Of a DNA stretch of 64,000 nt, positions 1 through 31,368 are shown one piece after another. Position numbers and translations under genes: made by a program. Each line of letters starts with the position of its first letter. Positions within the stretch are counted from its first letter, which is position 1. The notes under the pieces were generated by a model. The model did no database searches. It saw only the letters and a list, made by a program, of their open reading frames with translations, and had not been told where the DNA came from. Origin of the DNA: Convolutriloba macropyga (Eukaryota); assembly GCF_964194025.1 (NCBI RefSeq), contig NC_134477.1:22816001-22880000 (forward strand), read 5' to 3'.

Positions 1-1076
1 AGACTTGATTTAACAAATATACCAACTTCAACAGAAATTGATGATAACCCCGGAAACGAAAATCCATATACCGTACGGCGAGAGCGCCCGGAAAGACGAG
101 AACTCTTAAGAGCACGACGTCGATCCTCGCTATCATTCCAAACACAAGATTCAACACTCGTTTCATATGGTTCAACAGATATAGAATCTAACATAATCAG
201 ACCTATAGAAGTAGGAAACTCAGAACCACCAAGTAGAACAGGAACACCCACGTTACACAACTTTAGTTTAAGTTCACCAAGTGATCACTCAGGTAATAGT
301 ACAATCCCAACAACCAAACCATCTGAGATGAGAGCAAACCCCTTCCTACCGCCTACATTCTAACAAAGACAAGATTTCAACTTTGTTCAAGAACATTTTC
401 GAGCACAGCCATTACACTCACCCAATAGTTCTCTTTGGTCAGCAACATCACCACAACCTGCAAGTAGTAATAAAACACCACCAATATCAAACCAAACATC
501 ATCATCGAATACGCCGTTAAGCGTACCACAAGTTGAACCCAAAAACTCCTTACAACCACCAAGAAACACAGCTTTATCCCCATCATCCTTTATACCAGAA
601 ATAAGATTACCATCCAGCCATCCCGGTAGAACAAGATCAACACCAATACTTAACCCAAATCCACCTACTAAAAAGGACTAATGAACATACATATCTTTTC
701 CCACTAGATCATAAAACTTGTAACCCACCTCCACCATTATACGGAACCACTAATCTTGGTGATACACTTACTAATTGGTCACGGAGTAGACTAATAAACA
801 CATTAAATCTTACGCACCGACAACGTAACGCAGCACTTAACGTTTTATTAACACCATCTCTCGAACATAAATTTAACACAACAATTAAATACGATAAATG
901 TCTTTAATCATCCGTTCCACGCAACTACACCATCAATAGTAACAACCACACTTCCAGCACCGTTCATCTGCATTGACTTTATATACAAGTTTGACAGATA
1001 TACAAAACAAACATTAGGATTTGCAACATTCTACGATCCACACACTGTTCTGTCATACACATGTCGATTCAACTAA
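1..1076 (+). pseudogene. ORF4 C-terminal part in copy A
   Basis: Homologous to 17301-18380; same peptides (NPYTVRR, MRANPFLPP, FATFYDPHTVLSYTCRFN*) with stops and frameshifts. Confidence 0.55.
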
Positions 1077-4000
1077 AAGCTATTAATTTCATTTTATTAT
1101 TAATAATAATATACATAAATATGAAAGTAGAAACAAAAATACAATTAGAACAAAGACTAAAAACTGATGCTAGACAACGCATTAAAGACCGTATAAATGA
1201 AAGAATTGAAATAAAAACCAAACATTTCCAAAATAAAAACAAAACAAGAAATGAAATAGGTATCAGTAATTTACACACAACTAATCAACAAAAATACAAT
1301 AACCTTCAACACCATGTATTTAATAATAATAATAAAATAGAAGAACTCGACGACTTTAAAAACAGTTCAGACTACGAAGCCATGTGGGAAAAAGCCATAG
1401 ATAAATGGACACGAAATTGGAACTTCTACAGAGAACGATTGACCGATATTATATTAGAGAAATTTGGCATGGACAATAAAAGAAAAAAAACATAACCGAC
1501 TAACGTCGGGCGGATTGCTCTCAAACGACCGGCGAGCGGTTGGCTTGGTCAGTAGCTAGCCACGGGGGGGTGCACCGGAGGCTGATGGGGGCAGCACTGG
1601 GTGGGGGGGGGCAAAAGCGCGGTGGGGGGGGTGGTGGAGCCAATAGTGGGGGTGGGGGGTCAACAAAGGGGGGGGTGTCAACCTCTAAGAACCGCCCCTC
1701 ACACCATAAGTATAAGTATAAGTCTCCAAGACAGTTTGAGCTGAAACAGACCTGAAAGGCTCTAAGAGCACATAATGCCCGCTGGGCGCTACCTGTTTAT
1801 CCCGTTTTTGAGGACGAAAAGTCAAAAGCGTCAGACGAAAAATTGGTTAAGCGAAAAATCGCATAAAAAAAGACCGACAGGACTTTGTAGAACTAAAAAG
1901 CCAGAATGTTAATGGCTCTGCAACAGGACCACAAGAAATCTTCAATGAACACTACGATTGTGATGCAGAAGAATTTTTTAATGTTAAGTATTACGAATTA
2001 AACAAAATCAGCGCATGCAAATTCAAACCACTAGACTTAGGTTTGACAAAGACTGAAGTACAACTATTATCGAAAGCACAAGCAGTAGAAATAAAAACTT
2101 ACGCTGTGGCAGGAACAATTAAAGAACGCGTAGAATGGTGCTCACAACACACCGACTACATCCGAGCTAACAGACCAAGTTACTATGTCTCAGATGCACA
2201 AAGAACTAAAATAATAGATGCAGATGAAGTTCGTAACGAACTCGCTAGAATTAACCTCCTCAAAAACACAAGATACAAACCAACACGATATAACATTTCA
2301 TTCAATTACATAGCTAACCCATCACTTCAGAAACAGATCGAAGAAAAGCAAGGTAGAATACAATTTGACCTTGATACTCCTATGGTACCACCATACGGAC
2401 GAATAGTTTATGACTATACAAACCTAATGTGGATACCAAACGCAATTAAGAATGCACAATCAAACTGCATGAAAGGACCAAGAAAACAAAACAGAATAGA
2501 CATACTAGACTGGACATTAGAAATACGAGAAGTATCATTAATACTAAACTTAGACAACGAAGAAATGTCATATATGGGAACAAAATTACCGTGCGACCTC
2601 CGAAAAAGAGAATGTTTACCGACACCTTTCACAAAAGCAACAATAGTTTGGGAACCACAAACACATTGTCAATTATTTGAACTCATTAGATTTGATGCAT
2701 TTATGATAAAATACCAGGAGAGATATTGGATAGAAACAAATGCCGAATGGACAACAGTTCAAAAACTTGATAAAACACAGAAAATAGAAAAGAACAAAGC
2801 AGACACTATTGCCACCAGATTTGAAATCTACTCATTAGTAGAACGCGAATGCGGTTCGCTTCAACCAATACACAAAACAGAAAACGACGACATTTACATA
2901 ATCTACCAATACGGATTCGATATGCATACAGGACAAAAAGTAACAAGGAAAAAAGACAAATTTGAAAGAGAAAAATTTATACGGATTAACTCAAAACAAA
3001 TAACATCACAAACCACACGATTTGAAGACGAGGAAAACAAACAATACTAATATGGTTTTGTAAACCAAAACTCACACATGAACATAAAAATGGACCTTTA
3101 CATGAGTAACATATACTCGAGAATAAGTCTACAAGCAATGAAATTTTATTCGAAAATTTGTGATTAAACTAGAAACATTCGACAATAAACACTGACACAA
3201 GTACAAAAGAGCACACCACTCTTAGGATACATCCTAACTGGAGATAGATCAATCTTTGTTAATCAAGAAGGAGTAAATGTAATGAAAATGTACAAACGCG
3301 CGAAAAAATCATCACCCTTATATGTATCACAAACCCGCGAATGTTATGATAAAATGTCAATACTGTATAATAACAGAGTACAATATGTACATCAGCTAAC
3401 AAGACAAACATACTTATGGGCAAAGAAAGTCCAATGTTCACACAGCAACTTCGACCAACTGATCTCAATAGACACTGAAGGAACAGCAAGATATAGAGTA
3501 ACACCATATCCTGTAAAAGTAGAGACAGTATTGAACACTATATCACCAGAAGAAATAGTACTTGATAACATGTTCAGTAAATCAAGTTTAATAGAGAGTG
3601 GTATATACAGTGAAGAACAAATAATTCAAGAACGAAAACGAGATCTATTACACGAATACATGTGAGATCGCGAAAAACCATTACAAGAAGCAACCTCAGC
3701 AAACGCACAAAAATTGCTTGAACTTGAATAATTAGGACTATTACAAACTTACAAAAACTACGAACAATCACTAAAATGGTTAAGAGACCTGAACATAAAT
3801 GGATATAACTTCCAAATCAACCAAACCATTATTGACTGGAACAAAATCTTTTACGGAGCATGGCTTAAATAACAAATATTAACAATCTTTGGTTGGCCAC
3901 GGTACGTCTTAGAAAAAAAGGCAATAATCTACGCAATGATAAGCATGATACTATTTATCACAAATTTAATTATAAAATTCTACAACGCTTTTGCAATACA

Positions 4001-4847
4001 TAACGCAATTGGCAAACAAGCCAGTATAACAAAAATACTTCTTACAGGAAAATTCGGAATCTTTTCTCAAACATTAACACAACTAGTAGCTCAAATACAA
4101 GAAAAAGAAGAAAATAGCCACGACAGCGATGAAAACTATACACATTACGGAAATCAACCCAGAAAGAAGCATTCGTTTCGAAGACATTCCACAGACATAA
4201 CACATACAACAGATTATGCTGATAATGATAAACCTGAAGAAGTTTATGTGGATACAAACTACAAACATTATAACACAACAATTCGTAGAACAAAAAACGG
4301 ACTACAGTTAAGAACAACAAACTCATCTTCAAAGAAACAAAAACCACCATTACCAGAACGAAAATATAAACAAGAACCATTAAGAGTAGAACCACTGAAA
4401 ACAATATCAGAAAACAAACTACAAACACTGCCACCACAACTCATTACTCCACCTCCTGCATATCAATGCTCGGGAAATAATATATCATTCCCAACTACGC
4501 CTCTCAGTCAAAATACACCCCTTCCTAGTGCGCCTAACATACAACAACAACAAACTACATAATTTCAGAGACATCCATATGAACAACCACACAATATGAA
4601 CCAGTCAATATCGTATGAAATACCACAAACATCAAATGAATCTACAAATAAACAACATCTGACACCAACAGTAAAACTAATGGATATACAAAATCCACCT
4701 CCAATAGACTTTGACCAATTAAAAATAACGGCTAACAAAATGCATAACCGCAGCCATAGTTTAGACATATTAAAAAATGACGACAAACAACATACGAATG
4801 AAGTAACACATTTTAAAAACCATTCGACGGATACATACGAGGTTTAA
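1061..4847 (+). pseudogene. env: env-like class III (chuvirus/gB-like) fusion glycoprotein, copy A (premature stops, SINE-like insertion)
   Basis: N-terminal hydrophobic segment. Motifs YDC-x20-C, VQLL, WCSQH, LPCDLRKREC..TIVWEPQTHC, ECG..HKTE..IYI, CYDKMxILYNN..TR..KVQC and SGIYSEE. TM segment AIIYAMISMILFITNLII at about 3920-3975, then a long tail. Confidence 0.78.
1501..1872 (+). mobile_element. G-rich short interspersed repeat (SINE-like) inserted in env of copy A
   Basis: Absent from copy B. Homologous to 41302-41500 and about 40570-41066. A-rich 3' end; possible ACCGAC direct repeats at 1495-1500 and 1873-1878. Confidence 0.7.
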
Positions 4848-5334: not shown

Positions 5335-6756
5335 ATGGCTTCCAGAATGGACTACGAAATCGAATCACCTTACAAGACAGACTCTCCACTAAGCTCTGAT
5401 GTGGAAGAATGAGAGCTCAGCCCTGGTTCTGGACGATCAAGCCCAGGGACAATACGTAACAACGCATCCGACTGCAGTACACAAACGGATGACCGTTTTG
5501 ATCGCCCACAGGACAAAGTAACAACCATGAGAATCGAAATGGAAAATGCAACATTGGAACAAGAGACACAGACAAACCAACGTACACCACAAGAGATAGC
5601 AAACCTCATATCGGAAAAACTTCATAAAGCCCGACAGTCGGATACCCGATGAAATCTAGATTCTTTTCGTAACAAAACAAATGAACAAGCTACAAGCACT
5701 AATACACATAGCTACTAGAACAATAGGCCGAATAACAAAACTCAGATTGAAACATGTGTATCTCCACCCTTACCAAACTATCCACCACCAGTACGACCAC
5801 CCCCACCTGATGATTACACAACAGAAAACAATAGTATACAAAACAGTGTTCAACAACGCTGGATTGTAAGTAATCCGCATCACATTAGACCGAACAACCT
5901 CCGGTTTCCTTACGCAGTTACACCGAGAAGTAACAATAGGAAATCTTTTTTCCACCATTCTACAAATGACCAACCCCACAACAACTGTTATGGAAACAAT
6001 TTGGTTTCAAGAAAAAGACCCAAGAACCCTCAGCAATCCACACAGTAGTAATTATAATACTTTATTATCTTACCGTAACTGGTCTGAAATGCCGTTCGAT
6101 TCTCGAGATTATAACTTTGTTAAAACACCACAGCATAATTTAAAAGATCGCGTCTCGGAGTACTTCCCGCCTCTACCATCCGAGAATAATAACACTGTAA
6201 AACGTAGCACTAAGAATATGGGGAGAGATAAACTCCATCAGACAACATACCCCATCTTAAAACAATTCTATAGTCTAACAGAACGCTTTATGTATGATTA
6301 GGACTACGAGTTTAAGGTACCAGTAATTTGTACATTTGACTACCTTGTCGCAAAGGCATCCCAAGACCTTTCGGCTTACAGCGTGTTCGAACATCAAATT
6401 TTTCAATTAAGCGTCAACTTCCTACATCCAACACCGAAGGATGTTCAAAACAACAATTATCGGTTACACGAAACAAAGTTGATTCATAACTTGATATATT
6501 ATACGTTCCCACGAGATAAAAAGATTAACACTACTAAGAGTTAAATTCTTATTAACGACCAATTAACATCACCGTATTCCTTAAACTACGGATATAAACT
6601 AAAATGGGACTATACTATCGGGACTTTACGTAATTTTGACCCTATTAAAAATTATTACATTTTTCAACCCAAGGAAGCACCGGAACGACCACTAATTGTA
6701 CCAATCGAAGCGCTTGAACCGTGTGAAGAATATCACACTTACCACTTAGAAGGCAG
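5335..6756 (+). pseudogene. ORF6 of copy A, 5' part (first duplicate)
   Basis: MASRMDYEIESP start at 5335; truncated by B's LTR at 6757. Confidence 0.7.
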
Positions 6757-7154
6757 TAAGACGTGTTCTGAGCTTACCTTCTTATAGGCTACTTCTGGAA
6801 CTGTCTTATGGTTGTCTCAAGAATATAGGATACTCTTAAGGCTTACCTGACTAACTAAAGTTCAAGATCGCTAGTCTGTTACTCTTTTATCTGAGCTTCA
6901 GTAGACAGTGCACGGGCCCCAATGCTAAAGTCTAACGTATATCTCATAACTAAACAAGAGCGGAGTAGAGAGAAAGAAATATACTTTATTATTATATCAG
7001 GTCTGTGACTAGTACCGACTAACGGGATAAGTGAAAAAGGGGTAAAGGGAAAACATTCAAGGAAAAGTATTTTCCCTTTTTCAACCAATCAGGGTTGAGT
7101 ATTTCAGTCTTTATTTTATTTAAATAAATAAAGTCCTCAAGTCTTTTGTTGGAA
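6757..7154 (-). repeat. Duplicated copy of B's 3' LTR (part of the 3.76-kb tandem duplication)
   Basis: Same sequence and same GCAG junction as 10521-10918, offset 3764 bp. Confidence 0.9.
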
Positions 7155-9098
7155 AGGTTCGCCTGATATTTCTTAAAGGTTCGCCTGATACGACACATTG
7201 ATATTCAACCTTCCAAATAATTCCTTTGGTAATTATAATTCCTTTGGTAATTATAACTCCTTTGGGAATTATATCATATTAGTTGTTAATAGATGTACTG
7301 TTGTTAGTTGTTACTATAGAAGGATGCATGTTTATACATGCGATAGTTTCTTGTTTTTATTTACATGTTTAAGAATGATGTTATAATTGTGATTGTTATG
7401 TTTTACGATACATGAGAGATCGCGAAAAACCATTACAAGAAGCAACATCAGCAAACGCACAAAAATTGCTAGAACTTGAACAACTAGGACTACTACAAAC
7501 TTACAAAAACTACGAACAATCACTCAAATGGTTAAAAGACCTGAACATAAAGGGATATAACTTCCAAATCAACCAAACCATTATTGACTGGAACAAAATC
7601 TTTTACGGAGCATGGCTTAAATAACAAATATTAACAATCTTTGGTTGGCCACGGTACGTCTTAGAAAAAAAGGCAAAAAGGCAATAATCTACGCAATGAT
7701 AAGCATGATACTATTTATCACAAATTTAATTATAAAATTCTACAACGCTTTTGCAATACATAACGCAATTGGCAAACAAGCCAGTATAACAAAAAATACT
7801 TCTTACAGGAAAATTCGGAATCTTTTCTCAAACATTAACACAACTAGTAGCTCAAATACAAGAAAAAGAAGAAAATAGCCACGACAGCGATGAAAATTAT
7901 ACACATTACGGAAATCAACCCAGAAAGAAGCATTCGTTTCGAAGACATTCCACAGACATAACACATACAACAGATTATGCTGATAATGATAAACCTGAAG
8001 AAGTTTATGTGGATAGAAACTACAAACATTATAACACAACAATTCGTAGAACAAAAAACGGACTACAGTTAAGAACAACAAACTCATCTTCAAAGAAACA
8101 AAAACCACCATTACCAGAACGAAAATATAAACAAGAACCATTAAGAGTAGAACCACTGAAAACAATATCAGAAAACAAACTACAAACACTGCCACCACAA
8201 CTCATTACTCCACCTGCTGCATATCAATGCTCGGGAAATAATATATCATTCCCAACTACGCCTCTCAGTCACAATACACCCCTTCCTAGTGCGCCTAACA
8301 TACAACAACAACAACAAACTACATAATTTCAGTGACATCCATATGAACAACCACACAATATGAACCAGTCAATATCGTATGAAATACCACAAACATCAAA
8401 TGAATCTACAAATAAACAACATCTGACACCAACAGTAAAACTAATGGATATACAAAATCCACCTCCAATAGATTTTGACCAATTAAAAATAACGGCTAAC
8501 AAAATGCATAACCGCAGCCATAGTTTAGACATATTAAAAAACGACGACAAACAACATACGAATGAAGTAACACATTTTAAAAACCATTCGACGGATACTT
8601 ACGAGGTTTAACAACAACCCCGTAGTACAAGAACAAATAACATTGTTCAATTTACTATGTAATACACCTTTTTTCGATATTATAATGAATTTTTCCTACC
8701 CCTCCCTTTATAACTCCTCCTTTCACTTTATAATTTCAGTTTCATACCTACCAACCTATTTCATCGATTTCTTTTTTTCATTTTCTTCATTCTTCACCTT
8801 CATACTTCACTAATACATGTAGATTTCACATAACTCTTATAACAATAACATATACATGTATGCTTAGTAATAATATGTAAAAACACACTAACCGTTGAAT
8901 AACGTTCAATCGACATCCATTCATACTGATATAACAATACTTTCTTGGTAATAATAGTAACTGGGAATTCTGATGGGAAATAGTCATAACGACATCACAT
9001 AACAATAACATAACATATAACAACCATAAAAACAAATGTAAGAATAATAACATAGGTAATAATCAAGAATATGTACTCAACAGTTACAATTTTAGCAA

Positions 9099-10520
9099 AT
9101 GGCTTCCAGAATGGACTACGAAATCGAATCACCTTACAAGACAGACTCTCCACTAAGCTCTGATGTGGAAGAAGGAGAGCTCAGCCCTGGTTCTGGACGA
9201 TCAAGCCCAGGGACAATACGTGACAACGCATCCGACTGCAGTACACAAACGGATGACCGTTTTGATCGCCCACAGGACAGAGTAACAACCATGAGAATCG
9301 AAATGGAAAATGCAACATTGGAACAAGAGACACAGACAAACCAACGTACACCACAAGAGATAGCAAACCTCATATCGGAAAAACTTCATAAAGCCCGACA
9401 GTCGGATACCCGATGAAATCTAGATTCTTTTCGTAACAAAACAATTGAACAAGCTACAAGCACTAATACACATAGCTACTAGAACAATAGGCCGAATAAC
9501 AAAACTCAGAATGAAACATGTGTATCTCCACCCTTACCAAACTATCCACCACCAGTACGACCACCCCCACCTGATGATTACACAACAGAAAACAATAGTA
9601 TACAAAACAGTGTTCAACAACGCTGGATTGTAAGTAATCCACATCACATTAGACCGAACAACCTCCGGTTTCCTTACGCAGTTACACCGAGAAGTAACAA
9701 TAGGAAATCTTTTTTCCACCATTCTACAAATGACCAACCCCACAACAACTGTTATGGAAACAATTTGGTTTCAAGAAAAAGACCCAAGTACCCTCAGCAA
9801 TACACACAGTAGTAATTATAATACTTTATTATCTTACCGTAACTGGTCTGAAATGCCGTTCGATTCTCGAGATTATAACTTTGTTAAAACACCACTGCAT
9901 AATTTAAAAGATCGCGTCTCGGAGTACTTCCCGCCTCTACCATCCGAGAATAATAACACTGTAAAACGTAGCAGTAAGAATATGGGGAGAGATAAACTCC
10001 ATCAGACAACATACCCCATCTTAAAACAATTCTATAGTCTAACAGAACGCTTTATGTATGATTAGGACTACGAGTTTAAGGTACCAGTAATTTGTACATT
10101 TGACTACCTTGTCGCAAAGGCATCCCAAGACCTTTCGGCTTACAGCGTGTTCGAACATCAAATTTTTCAATTAAGCGTCAACTTCCTACATCCAACACCG
10201 AAGGATGTTCAAAACAACAATTATCGGTTACACGAAACAAAGTTGATTCATAACTTGATATATTATACGTTCCCACGAGATAAAAAGATTAACACTACTA
10301 AGAGTTACATTCTTATTAACGACCAATTAACATCACCGTATTCCTTAAACTACGGATATAAACTAAAATGGGACTATACTATCGGGACTTTACGTAATTT
10401 TGACCCCATTAAGAATTATTACATTTTTCAACCCAAGGAAGCACCGGAACGACCACTAATAGTAGCAATCGAAGCACTTGAACCGTGTGAAGAATATCAC
10501 ACTTACCACTTAGAAGGCAG
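9099..10520 (+). pseudogene. ORF6 of copy A, 5' part (second duplicate)
   Basis: ORFs 9099-9416, 9730-10065 and 10147-10551; truncated by B's LTR at 10521. Confidence 0.7.
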
Positions 10521-10918
10521 TAAGACGTGTTCTGAGCTTACCTTCTTATAGGCTACTTCTGGAACTGTCTTATGGTTGTCTCAAGAATATAGGATACTCT
10601 TAAGGCTTACCTGACTAACTAAAGTTCTAGATCGCTAGTCTGTTACTCTTTTATCTGAGCTTCAGTAGACAGTGCACGGGCCCCAATGCTAAAGTCTAAC
10701 GTATATCTCATAACTAAACAAGAGCGGAGTAGAGAGAAAGAAATATACTTTATTATTATATCAGGTCTATGACTAGTACCGACTAACGGGATAAGTGAAA
10801 AAGGGGTAAAGGGAAGACATGCAAGGAAAAGTATTTTCCCTTTTTCAACCAATCAGGGTTGAGTATTTCAGTCTTTATTTTATTTAAATAAATAAAGTCC
10901 TCAAGTCTTTTGTTGGAA
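10521..10918 (-). repeat. 3' LTR of copy B, missing its first ~16 nt
   Basis: Matches 31369-31774, then breaks at an internal deletion junction (about 10919). Confidence 0.9.
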
Positions 10919-12024
10919 AGGTTCGCCTGATACTTCTTAAAGGTTCGCCTGATACGACACATTGATATTCAACCTTCCAAATATTTCCTTTGGTAATTAT
11001 AATTCCTTTGGTAATTATAACTCCTTTGGGAATTATATCATATTAGTTGTTAATAGATGTACTGTTGTTAGTTGTTACTATAGAAGGATGCATGTTTATA
11101 CATGCGATAGTTTCTTATTTTTATTTACATGTTTAAGAATGATGTTATAATTGTGATTGTTATGTTTTACGATAATCAGTTTATTAAGTGATAAACTGAG
11201 TTATGGATGTGTCAAAATTTTGTTATTCGAATTTTTCGAATTTGTAATATACCTATGTATCGGTTTGTTAGAAACTTACCATTTTGTGATTTAGTTTTAT
11301 CGGATTTGGTTATAAAATACACTTCATACATGTTGTTATTGTGAATACCAATCTTTGAGCTAATGTTATAGAGTAATGTTATTACTGAAAATGGTAGAAT
11401 TGTCATGTCATGACTCAATCTATTGAATAACTATGTACACGTTATGTGTTGAATTTATTGTGCATGTCTGTTACATATAACCTATAGTGTGTTATTATAC
11501 ACTGTGTTGTGCATATTACGTTTGTTACGCTTGTTTATATCTCTTCCTCTTGTTCATACTACAAAATACAAGTTATTTTTTGGTCTTTTCTTTATTTACA
11601 AAAGTGCATATATCTAACTATGGAAAATCTTTGCATATGTACATGTATAGTTCTATCAGCTAAGAATAGGGTAGATAAATACTTAGAAAAGTGAAAAATT
11701 GAGTTCTATCTAAAGTTTATTCTACATCAAGTGCTATACCAGTTGCTATATCTATCAGTAATTATAAGTGATATAAACTGGTGTACAATTGTAGAGGATG
11801 GTACAAATGTAGAGGATTGTACAAAGTTAATGGATGGTTATCTAGACAAATAGATTAGAACTATACCAAATAGTTTGTTCAAACAGTTGGAGTATAATTT
11901 GGTACTGCAATAAGGGTAAAACACATGTGCAGAGAGGCATTCATAGTGGGATACTAATTGTTCAAATTTATTCAATCTACAGTGTTTGGATTTCGACATT
12001 GTTACTTGTTCTCAGTTTGTGTCG

Positions 12025-13676
12025 TTAAAATTTGTCCGTTTGTTTGGGATGATTTGTTCTGCCCCTATAATGCTTGTATTCCTTGAGAAATCGGTCATCT
12101 TTTGACAGAAAATGTGCGAGGAGATTAGTTATTTCGTCAATTGGTACGTCAGTTATCGACGCTTTAACTGTATTCCTTATCTCTTTTTCAATTTCCGTTA
12201 CTTCTCGTTCGTTATTGAATTGTACTCTATTACTAAAGGCTCTATTCGTTACGCTGCCTTCTAAGTGGTAAGTTTGATATTCTTCACACGGTTCAAGCGC
12301 TTCGATTGGTACAATTAGTGGTCGTTCCGGTGCTTCCTTGGGTTGAAAAATGTAATAATTTTTAATAGGGTCAAAATTACGTAAAGTCCCGATAGTATAG
12401 TCCCATTTTAGCTTATATCCGTAGTTTAAGAAATACGGTGAGGTTAATTGATCGTTAATATGTATGTAACTCTTAGTAGTGTTAATGTTCTTATCGCGTA
12501 GGAACGTATAGTATATCAAGTTGTGTATCAACTTTGTTTCGTGTACCCAGTAATTGTTGTTTTGTACATCCTTCGGTGTTGGATGTAAGAAGTTAAAGCT
12601 TAGTTGGAAAATTTGATGTTCGAACAAACTGTAAGCCGAAAGGTCTTGGGATGCCTTGGCGACAAGATAGTCAAAGGTACAGATTACTGGTACCTTGAAC
12701 TCGTAGTCATAATCATACATGAAACGTTCTGTTAGGCTATAGAATTGTTTTAAGATGGGGTATGTTGACTGATGTAGTTTATCTTTCCCCATATTCTTAG
12801 TACTACGTTTTACAGTGTTAGCATTCTCTGATGGTAGAGGCGGGAAGTATTCCGAGACGCGTTCTTTTAAGTTATGTAACGGTGTTATAACAAAGTTATA
12901 GTCTCGTGGATCAAACGGCATTTCGGACCAGTTGCGTTACGATAATAATGGATTATAATTACTGTTGTGTGGATTATTAAGAGTTCTCGGGTCCTTTTCT
13001 TGGAACCAGATTGTTTCCATAACAGTTGTTGTGGGGTTTGATCATTGGTAGACTGGTGGAAAAACGATTTCCTATTGTTACTTCTAGGTGTAACTGCGTA
13101 AGGAAACCGGAGGTTGTTCGGTCTAATGTGATGTGGATTACTAGCAATCCAACTTTGTTGAACACTGTTCTGTAGTCTGTTAGTTGCGGTTGTGTAATCA
13201 TCAGGTGGGGGTGGTCGTACTGGTGGTGGATATTTTGGTAAGGGAGGAGAGACATATGTTTCATCCGGAGTTTTGTTACTCGGCCTACTGTTCTCGTAAC
13301 TATGTGTATTAGTGCTTGTACCTTGTTCATTTGTTCTGTTACAAAACGAATCTAGATTTCGTCGGGTATCCGACTGTCGCTTCTTAGCAATGTGTTCTGA
13401 TATGTGGTTCGCTATCTCTTGTGGTGTACGCTGGTTAGTCTGTGTCTGTTGTTCAGATGTCGCGTTTTCCACTTCTATTCTCATGGTTGTTACTCGATCC
13501 TGTGGGTGATCAAAATTGTCATTCGTTTGTGTACTACAATCGGATGCGTTGTCGCGGATTGTCCCTAGGCTTGATCGTCTAGAGCCAGGGCTGAGCTCGC
13601 CTTCTTCCACATCATAGCTCAGTGGAGAGTCTGTTTTGTAGGGGGATTCAATTTCGTAATCCATTCTGGAAGCCAT
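12025..13676 (-). pseudogene. Accessory ORF6 downstream of env (about 550 aa, one frameshift), unknown function
   Basis: ORFs 12885-13676 and 12025-12921 join through a frameshift near 12990-13010. Disordered, Pro-rich N-terminal half and globular C-terminal half. Conserved with copy A. Confidence 0.72.
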
Positions 13677-14148
13677 TTGCTAAAATTGTTACTGTGTTTA
13701 GTACATATTCTCTATTATTACATATGTTACGATTATTATTTTTTAAATTATTTTTGTCATTAGTTGATTGTTATTTGGTGTTGTTATGACTATTTTCCAT
13801 CAGAATTTTCTTGTTACTATCATTACCAAAAAAGTATTGTTATATTAGTATGAATGGATATCGACGGAACAATACTGAACGGTTAGTGTGTTGTGACATA
13901 TCGTTACGAAACATGTATTTATATTGTTTTTGCTATATGAACTATGTGAAAACTACATGTAATTGTGAAATATGAAAATGAAGTATAAAGACGGTGAGAT
14001 AAATATGGTTAAAAGGATTTATAAACTGAAGAGAAGTGTTAGAAAAAGAGGGGTAGGGAAAATTTATCGGGAAAATTTATGAACATCTAAGGAATGTGTT
14101 GTACATTAATTGTATAATTTTAGTTGTTCGTGCACTACGTGGTTGTTG

Positions 14149-17100
14149 TTAATCCTCGTATGTATCCGCCGAATGATTTTCAAAATATGTTACTTCATTC
14201 GTATGTGGTTTGTCGTCGTTTTTTAATATGTCTAAACTATGGCTGCGGTTATGCATTTTGTTAGCCATTATTTTTAATTGGTCAAAATCTATTGGTGGTG
14301 AATTTTGTATAACCATTAGTTTTACTGTTGGTATCAGAAGTTGTTTATTTGTAGATTTATTTGACGTTTGTGGTATTTCATACGATATTGACTGGTTCAT
14401 ATTGTGTGGTTGTTCATATGGATGTCTCTGAAATGATGTAGTTTGTTGTTGTTGTTGTATGTTAGGCGCACTAGGAAGGGGTGTATTGTGATTGATAGGC
14501 GTAGTTGGGAATGATATATTATTTCCCAAGCATTGATATGCAGGAGGTGGAGTAATGAGTTGTGGTGGCAGTGTTTGTAGTTTGTTTTCTGATATTGTTT
14601 TCAGTGGTTCTACTCTTAATGGTTCTTGTTTATATTTTCGTTCTGGTAATGGCGGTTTTTGTTTCTTTGAAGATGAGTTTGTTGTTCTTATCTGTAGTCC
14701 GTTTTTTTTCTACGAATTGTTGTGTTATAATGTTTGTAATTTGTATCCACATAAATTTCTGCAGGTTTATCATTATCAGCATAATCTGTTGTATGTGTTA
14801 TGTCTGTGGAATGCTTCTTTCTGGGTTGATTTCCGTATTGTGTATAATTTTCATCGCTGTTTTTTCCTAAAGATTTCTTTCCAGTTAACACTGGGTTGGT
14901 CGATTTGGAAGTTATATCCATTTATGTACAGGTCTCTTAACCATTTGAGTGATTGTTCGTAGTTTTTGTAAGTTTGTAGTAGTCCTAGTTGTTCAAGTTC
15001 TAGCAATTTTTGTGCGTTTGCTGATGTTGCTTCTTGTAATGGTTTTTCGCGATCTCTCATGTATTCGTGTAATAAATCACGTTTTCGTTCTTGGATTAGT
15101 TGTTCTTTACTGTATATACCTTTTTCTATTAAACTTGATTTACTGAACATGTTATCAAGTACTATTTTTTCTGGTGATACAAAGTTCAATACTGTCTCTA
15201 CTTTTACAGGATATGGTGTTACTCTATATCTTGCTGTTCCTTCAGTGTCTATTGAGATCAGTTGGTCGAAGTTGCTGTGTGAACATTGGACTTTCTTTGC
15301 CCATAAGTATGTTTGTCTTGTTAGCTGATGTACATATTGTACTCTATTATTATACAGTATTGGCATTTTATCGTAACATTCGCGAGTTTGTGATACATAT
15401 AAGGGTGATGATTTTTTTTGCGCGTTTGTACATTTTCATTACCTTTACTCCTTCTTGTTTAACAAAGATTGATCTATCCCCAGTGAGGATGTATCCTAAG
15501 AGTGATGTGTTCTTTTGTACTTGTGTCAGTGTTAATTGTCAAATGTTTCTAGTTTGTTCACAAATTTTCGAGTAAAATTCTATTGCGTGTAGACTTATTC
15601 TCGAGTATATGTTAGTCATGTAAATGTCCATTTTCATGTTCATGTGTGTGTTTCGGTTTACAAAACCTTAGCAGTATTCTTTGTTTTCCTCGTTTTCTTA
15701 TCGTGTTTTTTGTGATGTTATTTGTTTTGGTTTAATCCGTATAAACTTTTCTTCTTCAAATTTTTCTTTTCTCCTCGTTACTTTTTGTCCTGTATGTATA
15801 TCGAATCCGTATTTGTATATTAAGTAAATGTCGTCGTATTCTGTTTTGTGTATTGGTTGAAGCGAACAGCATTCGCCTTCGACTAATGGGTAGATTTCAA
15901 ATCTGGTGGCAATAGTGTCTGTTTTGTTCATTTTTATTTTCTGTGTTCTATCATGTTGTTAAACTGTTGTCCGTTCGGCATTTGTTTCTATCTAATATCT
16001 GTCTTGGTATTTTACCATAAATGCATCAAGTCTAATAAGTTCAAACAATTGACAATGTGTTTGGGGTTCCCAAACTATTGTTGCTTTTGTGAAAGTTGAC
16101 GGTAGACATTCTCCTTTGCGGAGATCGCATGGTTATTTTGTTTCCATATACGATATTTCTTCAGTGTCTAAGTTTAATATGATTGATATTTCTCGTATTT
16201 CTATTGTCCAGCCTAGTATGTCTATTCTGTTTTATTTTCTTGGTTCTTTCATGCAATTTGATTGTGCATTCTTAATTGCGTTTGGTATCCACATTGGGTT
16301 TGTATAATCATAAACTATTCGTCCGTATGGTGGTACCATAGGAGTATCAAGGTCGAATTGTATTCTGCCTTGCATATATTCGATATGTTTCTGAAGTGGT
16401 GGGTTAGCTATGTAGTTAAATGAAATGTTATATCGTGTTGGTTTGTATCTTGTGTTTTTGAGGAGGTTGATTTTAGCGACTTCGTTACGAACTTCATCTG
16501 CATCTAGTATTTTTTTTCTATGTGCATCTGAGACATAGTAACTTGGTCTGTTAGCTCGGATATAATCGGTGTGTTTTGAACACCATTCTACGCGTTATTC
16601 AATTGTTCCTGCAACTGCGTATGCTTTTATTTCTACCGCTTGTGCTTTCGATAATAGCTGTACTTCAGTCTTTGTCATATCTAAATCTAGGGGTTTGAAC
16701 TTACATGTGCTTATTTTGTTTAATTCGTAAAATTTAACATTAGTTATCTCTTCTGCGTCAAAATCGTACTGTTAAATGAAAATGTCCTGTGGTCCTGTTG
16801 CGGAGCCGTTAATATTCTGTCCCGTTAGTTCTACAAAGTCTGTTTTTGTTTGTCGCTTTTGTCTTATATTGTTCATGCCAAATTTCTCTAATATACTATC
16901 TGTTAATCGTTCTCTGTAAAAATTCCAATTTCGTGTCCATTTATCGATGGCTATTTCCCACATCGCTTCGTAGTCTGAACTGTTTTTAAAGTTATCGAGT
17001 TTTTCGATTTTGCTGTTATTGAAAAGTTGTGGATTAGTGTTGATAGAATTATTATTGATTACATGGTGTTGTAGGTTATTATATTTTTGTTGATGAGTTG

Positions 17101-17316
17101 TGTGGAAATTTTAGAGTACTTTTTCATTTCTTGTTTTGTTTTTTTTTTAAAAAGTTTGATTTGTATTTCCATTTTTTCATTTATACGGTCTTTAATGCGT
17201 TGTCTAGCATCAGTTTTTAGTCTTTGTTCTAATTGTATTTTTGTTTCTACTTTCATATATAAGTATATTATTATTAATAATAATATAAAAATAATAGCTT
17301 TTAGTTGAATCGACAT
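14149..17316 (-). pseudogene. env: env-like glycoprotein, copy B (frameshifts; TM anchor deleted)
   Basis: Homologous to 1061-4847. RQKR furin-type site at 16853-16864. About 270 bp corresponding to A 3851-4122 is missing at about 14860-14878. Confidence 0.78.
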
Positions 17317-19100
17317 GTGTATGACAGAACAGTGTGTGGATTGTAGATTGTTGCAAATCCTAATGTTTGTTTTGAATATCTGTCAAACTTGTATATAAAG
17401 TCAATGCAGATGAACGGTGCTGGAAGTGTGGTTGTTACTATTGATGGTGTAGTTGCGTCGAACGGGTGATTAAAGACATTTGTCGTATTTAATTGTTGTG
17501 TTAAACTTAAATTCGAGAGCTGGTGTTGCTAAAACGTTAAGTGCTGCGTTACGTTGTCGATGTGTAAGATTTAAAGTGTTTGTTAGTCTACTTCTTGACC
17601 GATTATAAAGTGTATCACCAAGATTAGTGGGACCGATAACGGTGGAGGTGGATTCCAAGTTTTATGATCTAGTGCGAATAGATATGTATGTTCATTAGTC
17701 CTACTTTTAGTAGGTGGATTTGGGTTAAGTATTGGTGTTGATCTTGTTCTACCAGGATGGCTTGATGGTAATCTTATTTCTGGTATAAAGGATGATGGGG
17801 ATAAAGCTGTATTTCTTGGTGGCTGTAGGGAGTTTGTTAGTTCAACCTGTGGTACGCTTAGAGAGGTATTCGATGATGATGTTTGATTTGATCTTTGTGG
17901 TGTTGTGTTACTACTTGCGGATTGTGGTGATGTTGCTGACAATAGGGAACTATTAGGTGAGTGTAATCGCTGTGCTCGAAAATGTTCTTGAACAAAGTTG
18001 AAATCTTGTCTTTGTTGGAATATAGGTGGTAGAAATGGGTTTGCTCTCAATTCATATTGTGTGGTTATTTGGATTGTACTATTACCAGAATGATCGCTTG
18101 GAGAACATAAACTAAAATTATGTAATGTTGATGTTCCTGTTCTACTTGGTGGTGCTAAGTTTCCTACTTCTATAGGTCTTATTATGTAAGATTCTATATA
18201 TGTTGAACCATATGAAACGATCGTTGAATCTTGTGTTGGGACTGATAGCGAAGATCGACCTCGTGCTCTTAAGAGTTCTCTTCTTTCCAGGCGGTCTCGC
18301 CGTACGGTATATGGATTTTCGTTTCCGGGATTATCATCAATTTCTGGTGAAGTTGGTATATTTGTTAAATCTGTAACTTCGTTATGATGTGGTCTTTCTT
18401 GATGATTATTGTTACTTTGATTTTTATTAGACGACGCAATTTTTGCAGGTTAAACTTTAAGCTCCTGAGCCAGGTCCGTGTGGTGGAACTTGGATGAATG
18501 GTGGTGAGAGTATTATTAGTGGTGTTAAATCTTGTTCTGGTTGTTGTGTTTGTGCTCCTAGATTTGATATCCAAATTTCGTTATTGTCAAGTCTGAGATG
18601 TAGTTGATAAATTATAATGTTACCGTTTAATAGAGAAATTTCAGGAAATCCTATTTGAAAATAAAACTTTTGGGAATGTAGTGTGTACTATATTGATTCT
18701 TCTATATCTGGTATCTGGTATAGGATCAATTTTTATGGTTTTACAAAATATTCTATTAACATTAAACACATGCGTAAGAAGAAATAAATTATTAGTGCAA
18801 TTTTAATAAATTTAAAAATTTCCAGTTCTATTATATCAATAGTGGATTTGCATATATGAAATATATCGGAATGTACTCAATGCATTGGTTTTATTATTGT
18901 ACTGGTGGACTAGCGTAGATGACTCTACGGTTTGAAATAACTTCGTATATTGTTACTGTAGCTAGATATGTCGAAATAACTACAATACACGGTAAAAGAA
19001 AGATAGTTAAGAAAAATATTATTTTAGACAATATTAAATACGTTGCTATTAGTGCGTTAGGAAAATCGATTGTTGAAACTGTTTTTGTTGTTTTCTATAT
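17301..19100 (-). pseudogene. Accessory ORF4: hydrophobic N-terminal segments followed by an S/T/P-rich region (frameshifted)
   Basis: Manual translation gives ALIATYLILSKIIFFLTIFLLPCIVVISTYLATVTI near 18930-19055. ORF fragments 17583-18050 and 17470-17658. Homologous frame in copy A at 1-1076. Start is uncertain. Confidence 0.5.
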
Positions 19101-19314
19101 GTTTTGTTTATTTTATTATTTGTTTGTATATGAATGTTAGATATTATGGTTTTAAACTTTATCCGGTGGAAATGAGATAAAATGCTTCACTGAAGAGTGA
19201 CAGTTATTTACTAGTGTAACTGACACTTGATGGTGCCGCACTATGAAAGTACTGTAGTTCCAAAAGTGTTTATTTTATGTTATTGATATGCAACGATAAC
19301 GATGATAGGTATCA

Positions 19315-19734
19315 TTACTTATTTAATTTTTCAATTTTGTCGTCTGACAATGTTACAGCGTCTTTTTTGCAAACTATTAGAGAAACTGTGTGTAATTTGT
19401 TTATATTGACACACTTGTCTGTGTGAATTTGTTGTTTTAGTTTTTCGAATTCTGTAATTGTTTCAGTAAACGGTGCCGTGTTCTTTAGTAGTTCAAAATG
19501 TTTTTCTCCCCAAAACAGTTTTACTTCTTGTCCAGTTTCTGTTCTTCCTTCTATTAGAAGAAGACAGTTTTTAGGTGAGATTCTACAGTTTGTTAGTTTA
19601 ATACTGTCGTTGTCGAAATGTATATGACAATCTGGTGGATATTCAAGTTCAATATATTCGTCTATTTGAACAAATATTTTTATGCAAAGTTGATTTCTAT
19701 TCAATGATTTCATAAACTCTGACACCGATAGCAT
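19315..19734 (-). CDS. Accessory ORF3 of the element, 139 aa, unknown function
   Basis: Uninterrupted ORF on the element's sense strand with globular-like composition. Preceded by an acceptor-like TTCATTTCTGACAG at about 19777-19790. Confidence 0.5.
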   Translation of the reverse strand: MLSVSEFMKSLNRNQLCIKIFVQIDEYIELEYPPDCHIHFDNDSIKLTNCRISPKNCLLLIEGRTETGQEVKLFWGEKHFELLKNTAPFTETITEFEKLKQQIHTDKCVNINKLHTVSLIVCKKDAVTLSDDKIEKLNK

Positions 19735-22700
19735 AGGTGGTTGTTCATTACAATGTTTACTATAATGATGAATTAGTCTGTCAGAAATGAAATTAAAATA
19801 ATTCAGATTACCTGGTACTGTTGAATCGTTTTTGGCTGAATTTTTGTTGATAAAACAGTTGATTGAAGAAGAGATATTCTGTTAGTTTTAATTTCTCAAT
19901 GAATATTTCGAGGTTTCTCAAATTGGTTTGTCTAGATCGAGAGAGTATGAAATTTGAGAATTTCAGGATTATTTTTTGGCCGTAGAGATGAAATGAGATT
20001 ATGATTTTAGAAATGAAATGAAATGAGGTTATGTTTGTATTTGAGACTATAAATTCAGAAATAGAATGAAGTTTTGAGTAGAAGTTGGAAATTTTTTCTC
20101 ACTGAATATTTGAATTTATGTTTTTGTGTATCAGTTTAGCTGAAATTTCAGATTTTTCAAATGTAGCTGAGGTTGTGACTTGTACGACTTGTGATTTTTC
20201 ACTCAACTGTTTGTTGCCTCTATAATATTGTTGGCATTTGCATACCTTCCGTTTTCTTTTCTTGGTTCTTGAAGTTGCCAATTTTACTAATTTACTGGGT
20301 CTAATTAAACTTTTGGATTCTGAGTTTTCGAATTATAAGGATCTTTCTGAAGTCTCTTCAGTTTTGTTGTTATGATTGTTTTTCCTTTGTAATTGGTATG
20401 TTTGATGGCAGTGTAACGTACTTTTGTCATGGTATGTTAGAGATATTAATTAGTTACTTGATGGTGTTTATTGTCACTTGATAAAATTTAGCTCCAAGTA
20501 GGTTTTTGATCAATGGTATAATTGATGAAGATGGTTGAAGTGGATGGTGACGCCTTTGGTGTATGTCGTTAATGAGTTACCAAGTTGGTGTTTGGTGCAA
20601 ATGGTGCAAATGTCAAGTAGATGGTTGGTTTGCAAACTGTAACTGTTAATTAGTTGTTTGGTATCGAAGTCATGTCGAACGTGTTTGTGTGTATGATTGG
20701 AGTTGTGTTTAGATGAAGTGTTTACTTCAACTGCAAAATGATCTTTGTAGATCTATCATGATAATCACCATTTCGTTCATGGCGTTGAATATGTTAATTG
20801 GTTTGGCATTTTCTGTTTGTTGCTAATTGCGTCTTTAAGGGAACGGTAAGTCCCTGTAATTTGTATGTAAACTCTTTTTATCTGCAAATGAAAGTAGTAA
20901 TTTGTTCCTTTCTTTCCTTGTTCTGTGTTAATGAGGCCCTTGTTACCTTTTGTAATCCTTATATTTTTTCTAATGAGGATACTAATGAGGTCTTTTCCTG
21001 CTAATGATAGCGTGTTGTAAACGTCCGTTTCCTTCGTATGACGTAGGTGGATGGTGGCGTATTATTCAGGTAAAATGTCACTATGGGATTTCCATTTAGC
21101 CTAAATGTCTAATAAGCAGAAATGTCTATTTAGTTGGAATGTGTATTTAGCCGAAGGGCGTTTTACTGATGTTACGCGTTAGAGGTTGTTTGGTTAGTGT
21201 TATGAGCCAGAGGTCGTATGACCGATGAGTAATCAATGTGAACTATATGTCATGTATTTAGGTATTGAGCCGTTTAATTGCCGTTGCTCACTTGTTAGAA
21301 ATACCCTGGTTAGAGTACGCTAGATGTTACTGGATTGTAACACATTACTGGATTGTAACACGTATTGGAGTGTTACGCGTATTTGATTTTTACGCTTAAT
21401 GGATCTTTATACGTCGTTATACGTCTTTTACTCGTTCTGTTTAAATTATCTGTTCGGGAAATAGGAAGTTACTTAAATTGAGGAAGCTATTGAAAAAAGG
21501 AAGTTACTATATTTGTAACCGTTTATATTTATATGTATGTTGTTATTTCTAGCTTCCGCATTGTTACTATTGTGTGTGTCCCGTATTAATTTTTGTCCTT
21601 ATTATTTTTTATCTGTTTGTTAATTTTTACGTTGTTATTACTTGTCTTTTTAATACTTGTGGTTTTTCCTGTTGTTATTACTTGTTGCTATTACTTATCC
21701 TTTTGATTTTGATATTATAAATGTTTATGTATTATAAATGTTTTATATTAATTTCATTTTTCATGTTCCATAGTATTAGCAACTACAAAATGTCTATTCC
21801 ATTCTGCGAGTCCTCTATCGTGTTATTGCGGACATTGTTATTTGATTCTATTTGTGATTTGATTATTTTGTTATTTGATTGATTTGTTTATTGTTTAATC
21901 GTCAGCAAACTCGAAACGTCTATTCCAGTTCCAAGCCTGTGAACATCAAAAATAAAAACAGTTTGTGTTTTATTTTTATTTTTGTTTGTATTATTTGTTA
22001 GTAAAAACTATTTGTATTAGTATATCCTGTTTGGATTTTTTACTTGTTATTTTGATTGTTTGTTTGTTGTTTTATTTGTTTTATTTAACTGATGACGGTG
22101 GATTGGATGGGGATGGTTGTATTGAGAAGGTGGTTGCGGTGGTTGCGGTGACTGATGGTTAGTGATGAGAATCAGTTGTGAGATTGCCAAAGAAGAGGAG
22201 GTTTGATGATGGAAATAATGTTGAAAAAAAGAAGGTGATGGTGGAATGAGAAGAAGACGGGTAATACATTTTTGTTTTATGTTTCATTTTTTAGTTGTTT
22301 ATTTAAATGTCTCATGTGTTCATTTTGTTTCAATAGAAGGTGTTAATTTTTAGGTAAGGTAAACTGCAGTTAAATTCTATAGTATCACTGATTTAGTTCA
22401 TACACTAAATGTTGGTTGGAACAATTGTTAGTAAATACGGATTATATGGTTATGGTTTATAGAGGTTAGTGGTTAGGTGTTGGTTATTAACACTTTTTAG
22501 TTTCAATGTGTTATTATTTTCATTTGTATTTTAATATTGGTGTTTTCATTTGTTAAAATAAATATGCCTTTTTATTCTACGTTTTTACTGAAAAGTGTTC
22601 TGGTGGTATGCACACAAGGTTCGGGTTAGGAGGGTGTGCTAATTCTTTGTAGTAGGGATACTGAACATGTTTTCAAAGTAGTGAAAATACTGAATATGCC

Positions 22701-22982
22701 GAGAGTAGTAGAAACACTGACTGTGAATTGCAAAATCGTAGGATATGTAATAGATACGTAATAAAATAGAGGATACTTATGATATATTATAATAATAAAT
22801 AGAGTTCATTAGTGTAGTACGTAATAGTACAGTATATGTAATATGTGATAGAGTTCAACACTTGTAATGTGTAACCGTAATCTCGTTTGAGATTTCTAGA
22901 TCATAGGAGTGAATTGTCGTATTTGTGTTTAAGATGTAGCAATAAAGTGTATAATCGAATACTGTTAACATACATGGATTAG

Positions 22983-23208: not shown

Positions 23209-23281
23209 TTTATTATTATTTTAAGAGTGTTATCTTCCTCTTGCGAAGATTGTATTGATGTGTATGTTCTTTATCTGATTG

Positions 23282-28808: not shown

Positions 28809-28819
28809 ATGACTATAAA

Positions 28820-31366: not shown

Positions 31367-31368
31367 GA

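What the first reader, a model, noticed from the sequence alone, without database searches (positions are those of the whole stretch)
1061..4847. Env-like gene resembles chuvirus/Monjiviricetes class III fusion glycoproteins rather than errantivirus F-type Env
Seen: hydrophobic N-terminus, RQKR site (copy B 16853-16864), then EHYDCDAEE..ISAC..VQLL..WCSQH, LPCDLRKREC..IVWEPQTHC, ECG..HKTE..IYI, MDLYMSN..KIC, CYDKMPILYNN..TR..VQC, SGIYSEE and a TM helix. From memory, this cysteine and motif order parallels chuvirus glycoproteins and the chuvirus/gB-like env genes captured by some Bel/Pao elements. Inference: a Gypsy-lineage element with an RNA-virus-related fusogen, potentially infectious when intact.
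Basis: partly seen in the sequence, partly recalled or inferred. Interest (0 to 1): 0.88.

Follow-up and report, generated by a model that had tools for sequence, protein, structure and literature searches.

The report
Giant gypsy retrotransposon with gB-type envelope
This is a broken copy of the envelope gene of a 21-kb virus-like jumping gene with at least 150 copies in this animal's genome; its protein is predicted to fold like the herpesvirus fusion protein gB, a pairing already published, but here six extra conserved genes sit beside it, some likely read from unusual start codons.

Summary
Confirmed. Window 1061-4847 is a decayed env gene of a Ty3/Gypsy LTR element, and a second copy of the family is nested inside that element. 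An unbroken natural relative (84% identical over the largest open piece) matches Pfam Monjiviricetes_fusion above cut-off. Its AlphaFold model hits chu-like/xinmo/qin virus glycoproteins (E 1e-23) and herpes gB (E 2e-11; Z 10.8). So it is a class III fusogen, not F-type. The ectodomain is under strong purifying selection (dN/dS about 0.06). Gypsy plus gB-type env is already published (Chary & Hayashi, eLife 2026), so the headline is not new. The nearest distant env relative with a readable context lies in another Gypsy element, which argues against recent capture from a chuvirus. What differs is the layout: 21 kb, one 2,560-codon gag-pol frame, a 5.3-kb pol-env gap holding five conserved ORFs, and a 550-codon ORF after env. 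The 1.4 kb before env is depleted of ATG in three lineages, and three ORFs begin at conserved Kozak-context ATH codons. This suggests leaky-scanning translation (inferred; no RNA data). Fusion activity and infectivity are untested.

The parts
1061..4847 (+). env gene, copy A (broken: insertion, frame change, 7 in-frame stops); class III fusogen family
1061..1123 (+). predicted signal peptide (hydrophobic N-terminus)
   Evidence: sequence; hydropathy on unbroken relative
1489..1880 (.). unrelated G-rich repeat inserted at the predicted furin-site region; related pieces at 40925-41031 and 41299-41495
1881..3869 (+). env ectodomain (gB-like domains; 12 conserved Cys in unbroken relatives)
3873..4103 (+). 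membrane-proximal and transmembrane region
   Evidence: dN/dS 0.011 between subfamilies
4104..4844 (+). long (about 250 aa) Pro/Thr/Gln-rich cytoplasmic tail
7..1073 (+). 3' part of the 385-aa S/P/T-rich ORF preceding env, copy A (broken)
5335..6756 (+). ORF after env (about 550 aa in unbroken copies), 5' part, cut by the insertion of copy B
6757..7154 (-). 3' LTR of nested copy B, first of two tandem-duplicated versions
7408..11174 (+). tandem duplicate of 3656-7410 (env 3' end, post-env ORF, B's 3' LTR), about 1.1-1.2% diverged
10521..31790 (-). copy B: full-length decayed element nested in copy A in opposite orientation, 4-bp target duplication GCAG
10521..10918 (-). copy B 3' LTR (5' end lost)
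12025..13676 (-). copy B post-env ORF (broken)
14148..17316 (-). copy B env (broken; keeps RQKR at 16853-16864; TM region deleted)
17304..18449 (-). copy B 385-aa S/P/T-rich ORF without Met
18460..18733 (-). copy B about 90-aa ORF, predicted ATT start in Kozak context
18736..18885 (-). copy B 50-aa predicted membrane peptide (weak-context ATG)
18897..19073 (-). copy B 58-aa predicted membrane peptide, predicted ATH start; candidate splice acceptor near 19080
19315..19881 (-). copy B about 185-aa ORF; candidate splice donor CAG/GTAA near 19812
23282..31295 (-). copy B gag-pol (capsid, protease, RT, RNase H, integrase; broken)
31354..31366 (-). candidate primer-binding site (starts TGG, 2 nt after the LTR); tRNA not identified
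31369..31790 (-). copy B 5' LTR (422 bp, TG...TA)
31791..32020 (+). 3' remainder of copy A's post-env ORF
32174..34606 (+). 351-bp tandem array (6.9 units) in copy A's 3' untranslated region
35952..36376 (+). copy A 3' LTR, followed by target duplication CATC; its 5' LTR and gag-pol lie up to 19.3 kb before the window

Best explanation
The flagged region is a dead copy of the env gene of a 21-kb Ty3/Gypsy LTR retrotransposon family, and unbroken copies encode a type I membrane glycoprotein predicted to have the class III (herpes gB / chuvirus G) fusion fold that likely lets the element's particles enter other cells. Shown: gene order, family match, copy structure, purifying selection. Predicted: signal peptide, furin-type cleavage that removes a lineage-specific N-terminal piece of about 115 aa, internal fusion loops, long central helix, C-terminal anchor. 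Inferred: trimer formation; cell-to-cell or soma-to-germline spread; and expression from a subgenomic RNA on which ribosomes scan past weak ATH/ATG starts of several accessory ORFs before reaching env's ATG (about 50% for this last step).
For: PF24664 at 48.4 bits (cut-off 27) on an unbroken relative. AlphaFold mean pLDDT 71. Foldseek PDB: all 32 listed rows are herpes gB, best E 1.8e-11. BFVD: chu-like, xinmo- and qin-virus glycoproteins, best E 1.2e-23. VIA Z 10.8, 440 aligned, rmsd 18 A to VZV gB; lyssavirus G Z 8.6. 12 of 12 ectodomain Cys kept in all, or all but one, of 19-23 distant relatives aligned per column. dN/dS between two subfamilies: ectodomain 0.059, TM region 0.011, RT 0.026. 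About 34 of 150 scored copies have an unbroken 1131-1152-codon frame (counted by eye). LTR pairs 98.4-100% identical in 9 of 9 subfamily-1 copies examined. 4-bp target duplications in 13 of 13 insertions whose two ends I read. ATG count in the 1,400 nt before env: 3, 2 and 1 against 11.5, 9.9 and 8.8 expected in three lineages (0-1 of 500 shuffles as low), with no depletion inside env.
Against: Whole-chain TM-scores are low (0.2 to gB, 0.3-0.4 to viral models) and rmsd 15-18 A, so domain arrangement is not matched; pTM is 0.56 and the putative fusion-loop tips are low-confidence. No sequence-level hit to any solved fusogen. The copies examined were picked for an unbroken env, so they are biased to young insertions. 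dS is near saturation (1.1-3.2), so the ratios are rough. For the scanning model: several ATGs remain 1.4-2.9 kb upstream, some with a purine at -3, and a candidate splice donor and acceptor are also conserved. Function and expression are untested.
Confidence: 0.85

Rival explanations
1. Same class III env, but the accessory ORFs and env are expressed from alternatively spliced or internally promoted mRNAs, as in Tor elements or complex retroviruses, not by leaky scanning.
For: A CAG/GTAA donor just inside the 185-aa ORF is present in both subfamilies and window copy B, and an AG/TTTCA acceptor in matching phase precedes the 58-aa membrane ORF. Short conserved non-coding islands lie in the 2.8 kb after pol. 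Tor env uses splicing or an internal promoter (PMC4402516, passages).
Against: No conserved AG acceptor before the 90-aa or 385-aa ORF; the acceptor is missing in copy A and the divergent lineage. Splicing alone does not explain the loss of out-of-frame ATGs in the 385-aa ORF (2 vs 9.8 and 4 vs 8.4 under codon shuffling; 0 and 90 of 2000).
Confidence: 0.35
2. The env is a recent capture from a chuvirus or related negative-strand RNA virus (an endogenous viral element picked up by this family).
For: Best predicted-structure matches are chu-like, xinmo- and qin-virus glycoproteins; the Pfam family is named for Monjiviricetes; mosquito Pao elements did this (PMC7642597, abstract).
Against: Identity to those viral proteins is only 11-15%, against 24-31% to unnamed relatives. 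One of these sits in a gag-pol-env element with a related pol. RT and env identities fall in step: 95/87, about 87/65, 44/26%. No relative found in viral contigs.
Confidence: 0.08
3. The gB-like protein is kept for something other than particle entry, such as cell-cell fusion or blocking of related elements, or is host-domesticated.
For: No particle, expression or fusion data; the tail is unusually long; solo chuvirus-like glycoproteins were proposed as host defence in mosquitoes (PMC7642597, abstract).
Against: All 15 loci examined with flanks have env inside the element, and selection on env is of the same order as on RT and integrase.
Confidence: 0.1

Closest known systems
HSV/gB-type 'ancient errantiviruses' (Ty3/gypsy; Chary & Hayashi, eLife 2026, PMC13524379; read: abstract, sections 5 part 1, 6, 7, 8, 14, passages, parts of supplementary files 1 and 6)
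   Same: Ty3/gypsy pol, gag-pol-env order, env with signal peptide, gB-like ectodomain, conserved Cys and TM; the paper itself links this env type to Chuviridae glycoproteins.
   Different: 21 kb LTR to LTR, against about 8-14 kb for the rows with LTR coordinates in the one part of 34 of their table that I read. Six accessory ORFs. The PBS string is not in their table. Placement in their tree was not tested.
Anakin (BEL/Pao with chuvirus glycoprotein, mosquitoes; PMC7642597, abstract only)
   Same: LTR element carrying a chuvirus-like glycoprotein, amplified by retrotransposition.
   Different: This element's pol is Ty3/gypsy-like, not Bel/Pao, and its env is far from sampled chuvirus G.
Chuvirus, xinmovirus and qinvirus glycoproteins (Pfam PF24664) and herpesvirus gB
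   Same: Profile match; predicted class III fold; Cys order; central and C-terminal helices.
   Different: 9-15% identity; extra N-terminal piece ending in a furin-type site, which 0 of 12 distant relatives show in their first 250 aa; 250-aa tail.
Burro/GYPSM1 giant gypsy elements of planarians and plant Ogre (PMC6431247, passages)
   Same: LTR elements above 20 kb with extra coding capacity and high copy number.
   Different: Burro's size comes from a 4,900-aa polyprotein with env in frame between gag and pol; Ogre's from long LTRs. Here LTRs are 422 bp and the extra length is separate ORFs around env. The internal region (about 20.2 kb) is at that review's 20-kb 'giant' line.
Rice tungro bacilliform virus and badnavirus polycistronic translation (PMC5902531, passages)
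   Same: Works-like comparison only: AUU-started ORF and AUG-free upstream ORFs allow leaky scanning over about 900 nt.
   Different: Plant pararetroviruses, not LTR elements; here the mechanism is inferred from sequence alone.
Tor elements of Oikopleura (PMC4402516, passages)
   Same: Gypsy-type elements with membrane-bound, furin-cleaved Env; env RNA from splicing or an internal promoter.
   Different: No accessory ORF array in the passages read; tunicate elements near Tor4b are F-type in PMC13524379.

Membership tests
Class III fusion glycoproteins (gB / chuvirus G type) | Profile match to the family above cut-off | tested here: met
   PF24664 48.4 bits vs 27; broken window pieces 29.3, 30.1 and 23.5 bits
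Class III fusion glycoproteins (gB / chuvirus G type) | Fold similarity to gB / rhabdovirus G across the ectodomain | tested here: met
   Foldseek E 1.8e-11 to HSV gB, 1.2e-23 to chu-like G; VIA Z 10.8, 440 aligned, rmsd 18 A; predicted model, low TM-scores
Class III fusion glycoproteins (gB / chuvirus G type) | Conserved cysteine scaffold | tested here: met
   12 of 12 ectodomain Cys conserved across distant relatives; disulfide pairing not read from the model
Class III fusion glycoproteins (gB / chuvirus G type) | Long central helix and C-terminal helix | tested here: met
   45-residue and 40-residue helices in the model
Class III fusion glycoproteins (gB / chuvirus G type) | Internal hydrophobic fusion loops at the tip of domain I | tested here: inconclusive
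   Aromatic residues lie between long strands near conserved Cys226 and Cys335, but loops are low-confidence and longer than in relatives
Class III fusion glycoproteins (gB / chuvirus G type) | Homotrimer | not tested
   Three ectodomains exceed the complex tool's size limit
Class III fusion glycoproteins (gB / chuvirus G type) | Membrane fusion activity | not testable with these tools
   No experimental data
F-type (baculovirus F / errantivirus class I) Env | Hydrophobic fusion peptide directly after the furin site | tested here: not met
   A polar stretch follows the site in both subfamilies; no hydrophobic window between residues 29 and 812
F-type (baculovirus F / errantivirus class I) Env | Profile or fold match to F proteins | tested here: inconclusive
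   None listed in Pfam at E<=0.5 or among shown fold rows; not being listed is not exclusion
Ty3/Gypsy LTR retrotransposons (Metaviridae) | Domain order PR-RT-RH-IN after a retrotransposon capsid | tested here: met
   (protease match weak, E 0.035)
Ty3/Gypsy LTR retrotransposons (Metaviridae) | RT closest to Ty3/gypsy | tested here: met
   Ty3 RT E 3.4e-35, foamy 6e-22, HIV 1e-8; named relatives about 27-31% identical; long-branch clade of unnamed elements, quick tree
Ty3/Gypsy LTR retrotransposons (Metaviridae) | Direct LTRs with target-site duplication | tested here: met
   422-432-bp LTRs, TG...TA ends, 4-bp duplication in 13 of 13 read
Ty3/Gypsy LTR retrotransposons (Metaviridae) | tRNA primer-binding site | tested here: inconclusive
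   Conserved TGG-starting motif after the 5' LTR; two pattern searches found no matching tRNA gene
BEL/Pao (Anakin type) | Bel/Pao-type pol | tested here: not met
   No Bel/Pao-specific Pfam family at E<=0.5, and RT/RH profiles are gypsy-type; Bel/Pao references were not in the tree
HSV/gB-type errantiviruses of PMC13524379 | Ty3/gypsy pol with full RT and IN plus gB-type env in multiple near-identical copies | tested here: met
HSV/gB-type errantiviruses of PMC13524379 | Position within their POL tree and cysteine-bridge class | not tested

The most novel reading that the evidence does not exclude
A still-spreading 'complex retrovirus' of invertebrates: a deep Gypsy lineage of 21 kb that puts five accessory genes, two of them small membrane proteins, in front of a gB-type envelope on one subgenomic RNA and translates them by leaky scanning from AUU/AUA/AUC starts, a strategy known from plant pararetroviruses but not found in my searches for animal LTR elements.
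Probability: 0.35. Interest if true: 0.78.

Novelty: new variant of a known kind. Interest (0 to 1): 0.52.

Why it matters
The env type itself adds one more host to a published class. The layout matters more. It shows that surveys limited to 10-kb elements with env next to pol miss a larger kind. It also gives a young, high-copy family in which accessory genes of an invertebrate endogenous retrovirus, and non-AUG polycistronic translation, can be tested by RNA and ribosome data from the host alone.

Tried and rejected
No RNA holder listed by the run search (4 runs, one study, none on record as RNA), so no reads were laid; this is no evidence on expression. Sequence searches of the PDB with env found no fusogen. 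Atlas searches for env and the post-env ORF gave no usable hit. Folding the post-env ORF's C-terminal 299 aa without an alignment failed (pLDDT 35) and was not fold-searched. Pfam found nothing credible for the 185-aa, 385-aa and post-env ORFs; the 50-, 58- and 90-aa ORFs were not scanned. No tRNA gene found for the PBS with two patterns. The let-7 search to narrow the host group was uninformative. Sister pol families at 67% and 43% RT identity were not found in this genome at E<=1e-60, so whether they carry env is open. No env relative in phage records or viral contigs; a single-protein metagenome scan found none. The careful RT tree did not finish; the quick tree is quoted. F proteins were absent from the shown fold rows, which does not exclude them. 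My first reading of the window's repeats as terminal inverted repeats was rejected once natural copies showed direct LTRs and nesting. Earlier-scan look-ups were empty. Literature: searches listed no paper describing this family or non-AUG scanning in an animal LTR element; only listings were seen for most, the library lacks most subscription papers, and Repbase/Dfam could not be searched.
Full report
Observation. Copy A's env runs from ATG 1061 to 4847. It is broken by a ~390-bp unrelated repeat near the predicted cleavage site, a frame change there, and 7 in-frame stops. RQKR and CYDKMPILYNN are copy B's letters, and copy B has lost the transmembrane region. Two open pieces of copy A match Pfam PF24664 (Monjiviricetes fusion glycoprotein) at 1.6e-5 and 2.9e-7.

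Window anatomy. The window holds two decayed members of one family. Copy A starts 19.3 kb before the window with a 5' LTR and a broken gag-pol and ends at 36376, with target duplication CATC. Copy B (31790 to 10521, minus strand, duplication GCAG) is inserted in A's post-env ORF. A 3.75-kb tandem duplication (3656-7410 and 7408-11174, about 1.1-1.2% diverged) repeats the junction; it may be real or a haplotype artefact. LTR pairs differ at 19 of 406 sites in A and 21-23 of 397 in B. B must be the younger, and the difference is within sampling error.

The family. A 200-aa env query found 1,578 first-look candidates in the 1.18-Gb genome; 150 were scored, all at 88% identity or more, and about 34 of these have an unbroken frame of 1131-1152 codons (counted by eye). 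I examined 14 natural copies chosen for an unbroken env, plus one divergent copy. Of the 11 whose two ends were read, 10 are 21.0-21.4 kb and one, with an internal deletion, is 19.4 kb. LTRs are 422-432 bp, end TG...TA, and are 98.4-100% identical within each of 9 of 9 subfamily-1 copies. Four of the 14 keep gag-pol as one frame of 2,558-2,582 codons. Domain order is capsid, protease (weak match), RT, RNase H, integrase. The best solved RT is Ty3's (E 3.4e-35). Named database relatives are only about 27-31% identical, and a quick tree puts the element in a long-branched clade of unnamed elements (support 100). The host uses the invertebrate mitochondrial code with AGA as Ser and AAA as Lys (read from conserved COX1 positions recalled from memory). 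I did not determine its group further.

The env protein. An unbroken natural relative (1,132 aa; 84% identical to copy A's largest open piece) has a hydrophobic N-terminus, RQKR at 132-135, a hydrophobic anchor at about 813-876 and a 250-aa tail. It scores 48.4 bits on PF24664, cut-off 27. A 63-sequence AlphaFold model of residues 90-802 has mean pLDDT 71 and pTM 0.56. Foldseek lists only herpesvirus gB chains in its 32 shown PDB rows (best E 1.8e-11). In the viral library the top matches are chu-like, xinmo- and qin-virus glycoproteins (E 1e-23 to 1e-21, 11-15% identity). VIA-align gives Z 10.8 to VZV gB over 440 residues at rmsd 18 A, and Z 8.6 to Mokola virus G. TM-scores are low, so the domains match but their arrangement does not; this is a predicted monomer of a protein class that changes shape. 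All 12 ectodomain cysteines are kept in distant relatives. The furin-type site is followed by polar sequence, unlike F-type Env, where the fusion peptide follows the site (established knowledge; PMC13524379 section 6). A basic site is also present in the divergent lineage but in 0 of 12 distant relatives checked. Pairwise dN/dS between two subfamilies is 0.059 for the ectodomain, 0.011 for the anchor region and 0.14 for the tail, against 0.026-0.031 for RT and integrase; dS is near saturation, so values are rough.

Origin. A scan of 1.84 billion representatives gave full-length relatives at 24-31% identity, none with an informative name. Five metagenome loci were recovered; one was long enough to show pol. 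It is a 13-kb gag-pol-env element with two further ORFs after env, and its pol is 47-54% identical to members of the same RT clade. RT and ectodomain identities to subfamily 1 fall in step: 95/87% (subfamily 2), about 87/65% (divergent copy), 44/26% (this element). That favours long residence of env in this pol lineage over recent capture from a chuvirus, on one distant example. Direction of transfer is not shown.

What is unusual. Between the pol stop and env lie 5.3-5.4 kb. The last 2.5 kb hold five ORFs in tandem: about 185 aa, a 58-aa and a 50-aa hydrophobic peptide, about 90 aa, and 385 aa rich in S/P/T with a conserved C-terminus. A 550-aa ORF follows env. All six are recognisable in both subfamilies, the window copies and the divergent lineage; one of the 14 copies has lost the first four by deletion. 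dN/dS is 0.12, 0.06, undefined (pN 0.13, pS 0.77), 0.20 and 0.09 for the five; for the post-env ORF it is 0.15 in the first 200 codons and undefined beyond because dS is saturated. None of those scanned has a credible Pfam match. Three have no ATG. In each, conservation begins at an Ile codon with a purine at -3 and G at +4; such a motif shared by both subfamilies occurs at 0.2-1% of codons in gag-pol, env and the post-env ORF (the pattern was noticed before it was counted). ATG is depleted in the 1,400 nt before env in three lineages (3, 2, 1 seen; 11.5, 9.9, 8.8 expected; 0-1 of 500 shuffles), less so in the decayed window copies (6 and 5 against about 11), and not inside env. Most remaining ATGs there are in weak context and open short frames. 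This is the signature described for leaky scanning in rice tungro bacilliform virus (PMC5902531, passages). A candidate splice donor and acceptor are also partly conserved, so splicing is a live rival and both may operate. No RNA data were available to decide.

Mechanism, with status. Shown: a Gypsy element with recent, near-identical insertions and an env kept under selection. Predicted: class III fold, signal peptide, cleavage, anchor. Inferred: Env on budding particles fuses with target-cell membranes through internal loops and spreads the element between cells, as Drosophila errantiviruses do with F-type Env (established knowledge). Inferred at about even odds: a subgenomic polycistronic RNA read by leaky scanning. 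Unknown: roles of the accessory proteins; my guess is that the small membrane peptides and the S/P/T-rich protein help budding or trafficking.

Comparison and novelty. I read one of 34 parts of their element table and one of 17 parts of their genome table, so I cannot exclude a listed relative; the PBS string is absent from the element table, and Xenacoelomorpha is not named in the supplements, which would matter only if the host belongs there (untested guess). Giant gypsy elements exist (Burro, Ogre; PMC6431247) but are built differently. Verdict: new variant of a known kind; interest 0.52.

Noticed in passing
flanks of natural copies in L015-L022, L027-L030, L034-L037, L057-L059, L066-L068: 5 of 14 copies examined sit directly inside tandem arrays on both sides (4-, 7-, 13-, 180- and 182-bp units), a sixth within about 0.5 kb. 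May reflect targeting of satellite DNA; no genome baseline was computed.
   Followed up: partly
window 43073-43426 (-): Calx-beta domain match (Pfam E 1.9e-8), probably an exon of a host gene next to the nested elements.
   Followed up: no
window 1489-1880, 40925-41031, 41299-41495: G-rich repeat of about 390 bp with related pieces elsewhere in the window; probably a short non-autonomous element.
   Followed up: partly
L075:9651-12095: The distant gag-pol-env relative also carries two ORFs after env (368 and 312 aa, weak coiled-coil matches) and has no ATG in the 400 nt before env.
   Followed up: partly
protein P0244: Pol of a sister lineage (43% RT identity) has an insert between protease and RT that looks like a macrodomain (recognised from memory, not scanned).
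   Followed up: no
window 30064-31295 (-): Gag has about 560 extra residues before the capsid domain, under selection (dN/dS 0.17), with only a weak MavL-macrodomain hint (E 0.004).
   Followed up: no
L015 (2362-6706): Two long ORFs beside one copy resemble a protein-primed DNA polymerase region of a Polinton-like element (recognised from memory, not scanned).
   Followed up: no
L043 and L045: One copy is inserted inside the gag-pol of a different LTR retrotransposon family.
   Followed up: no
window 63174-64000: Satellite with 32/127-bp periods; a related array lies near one natural copy.
   Followed up: no
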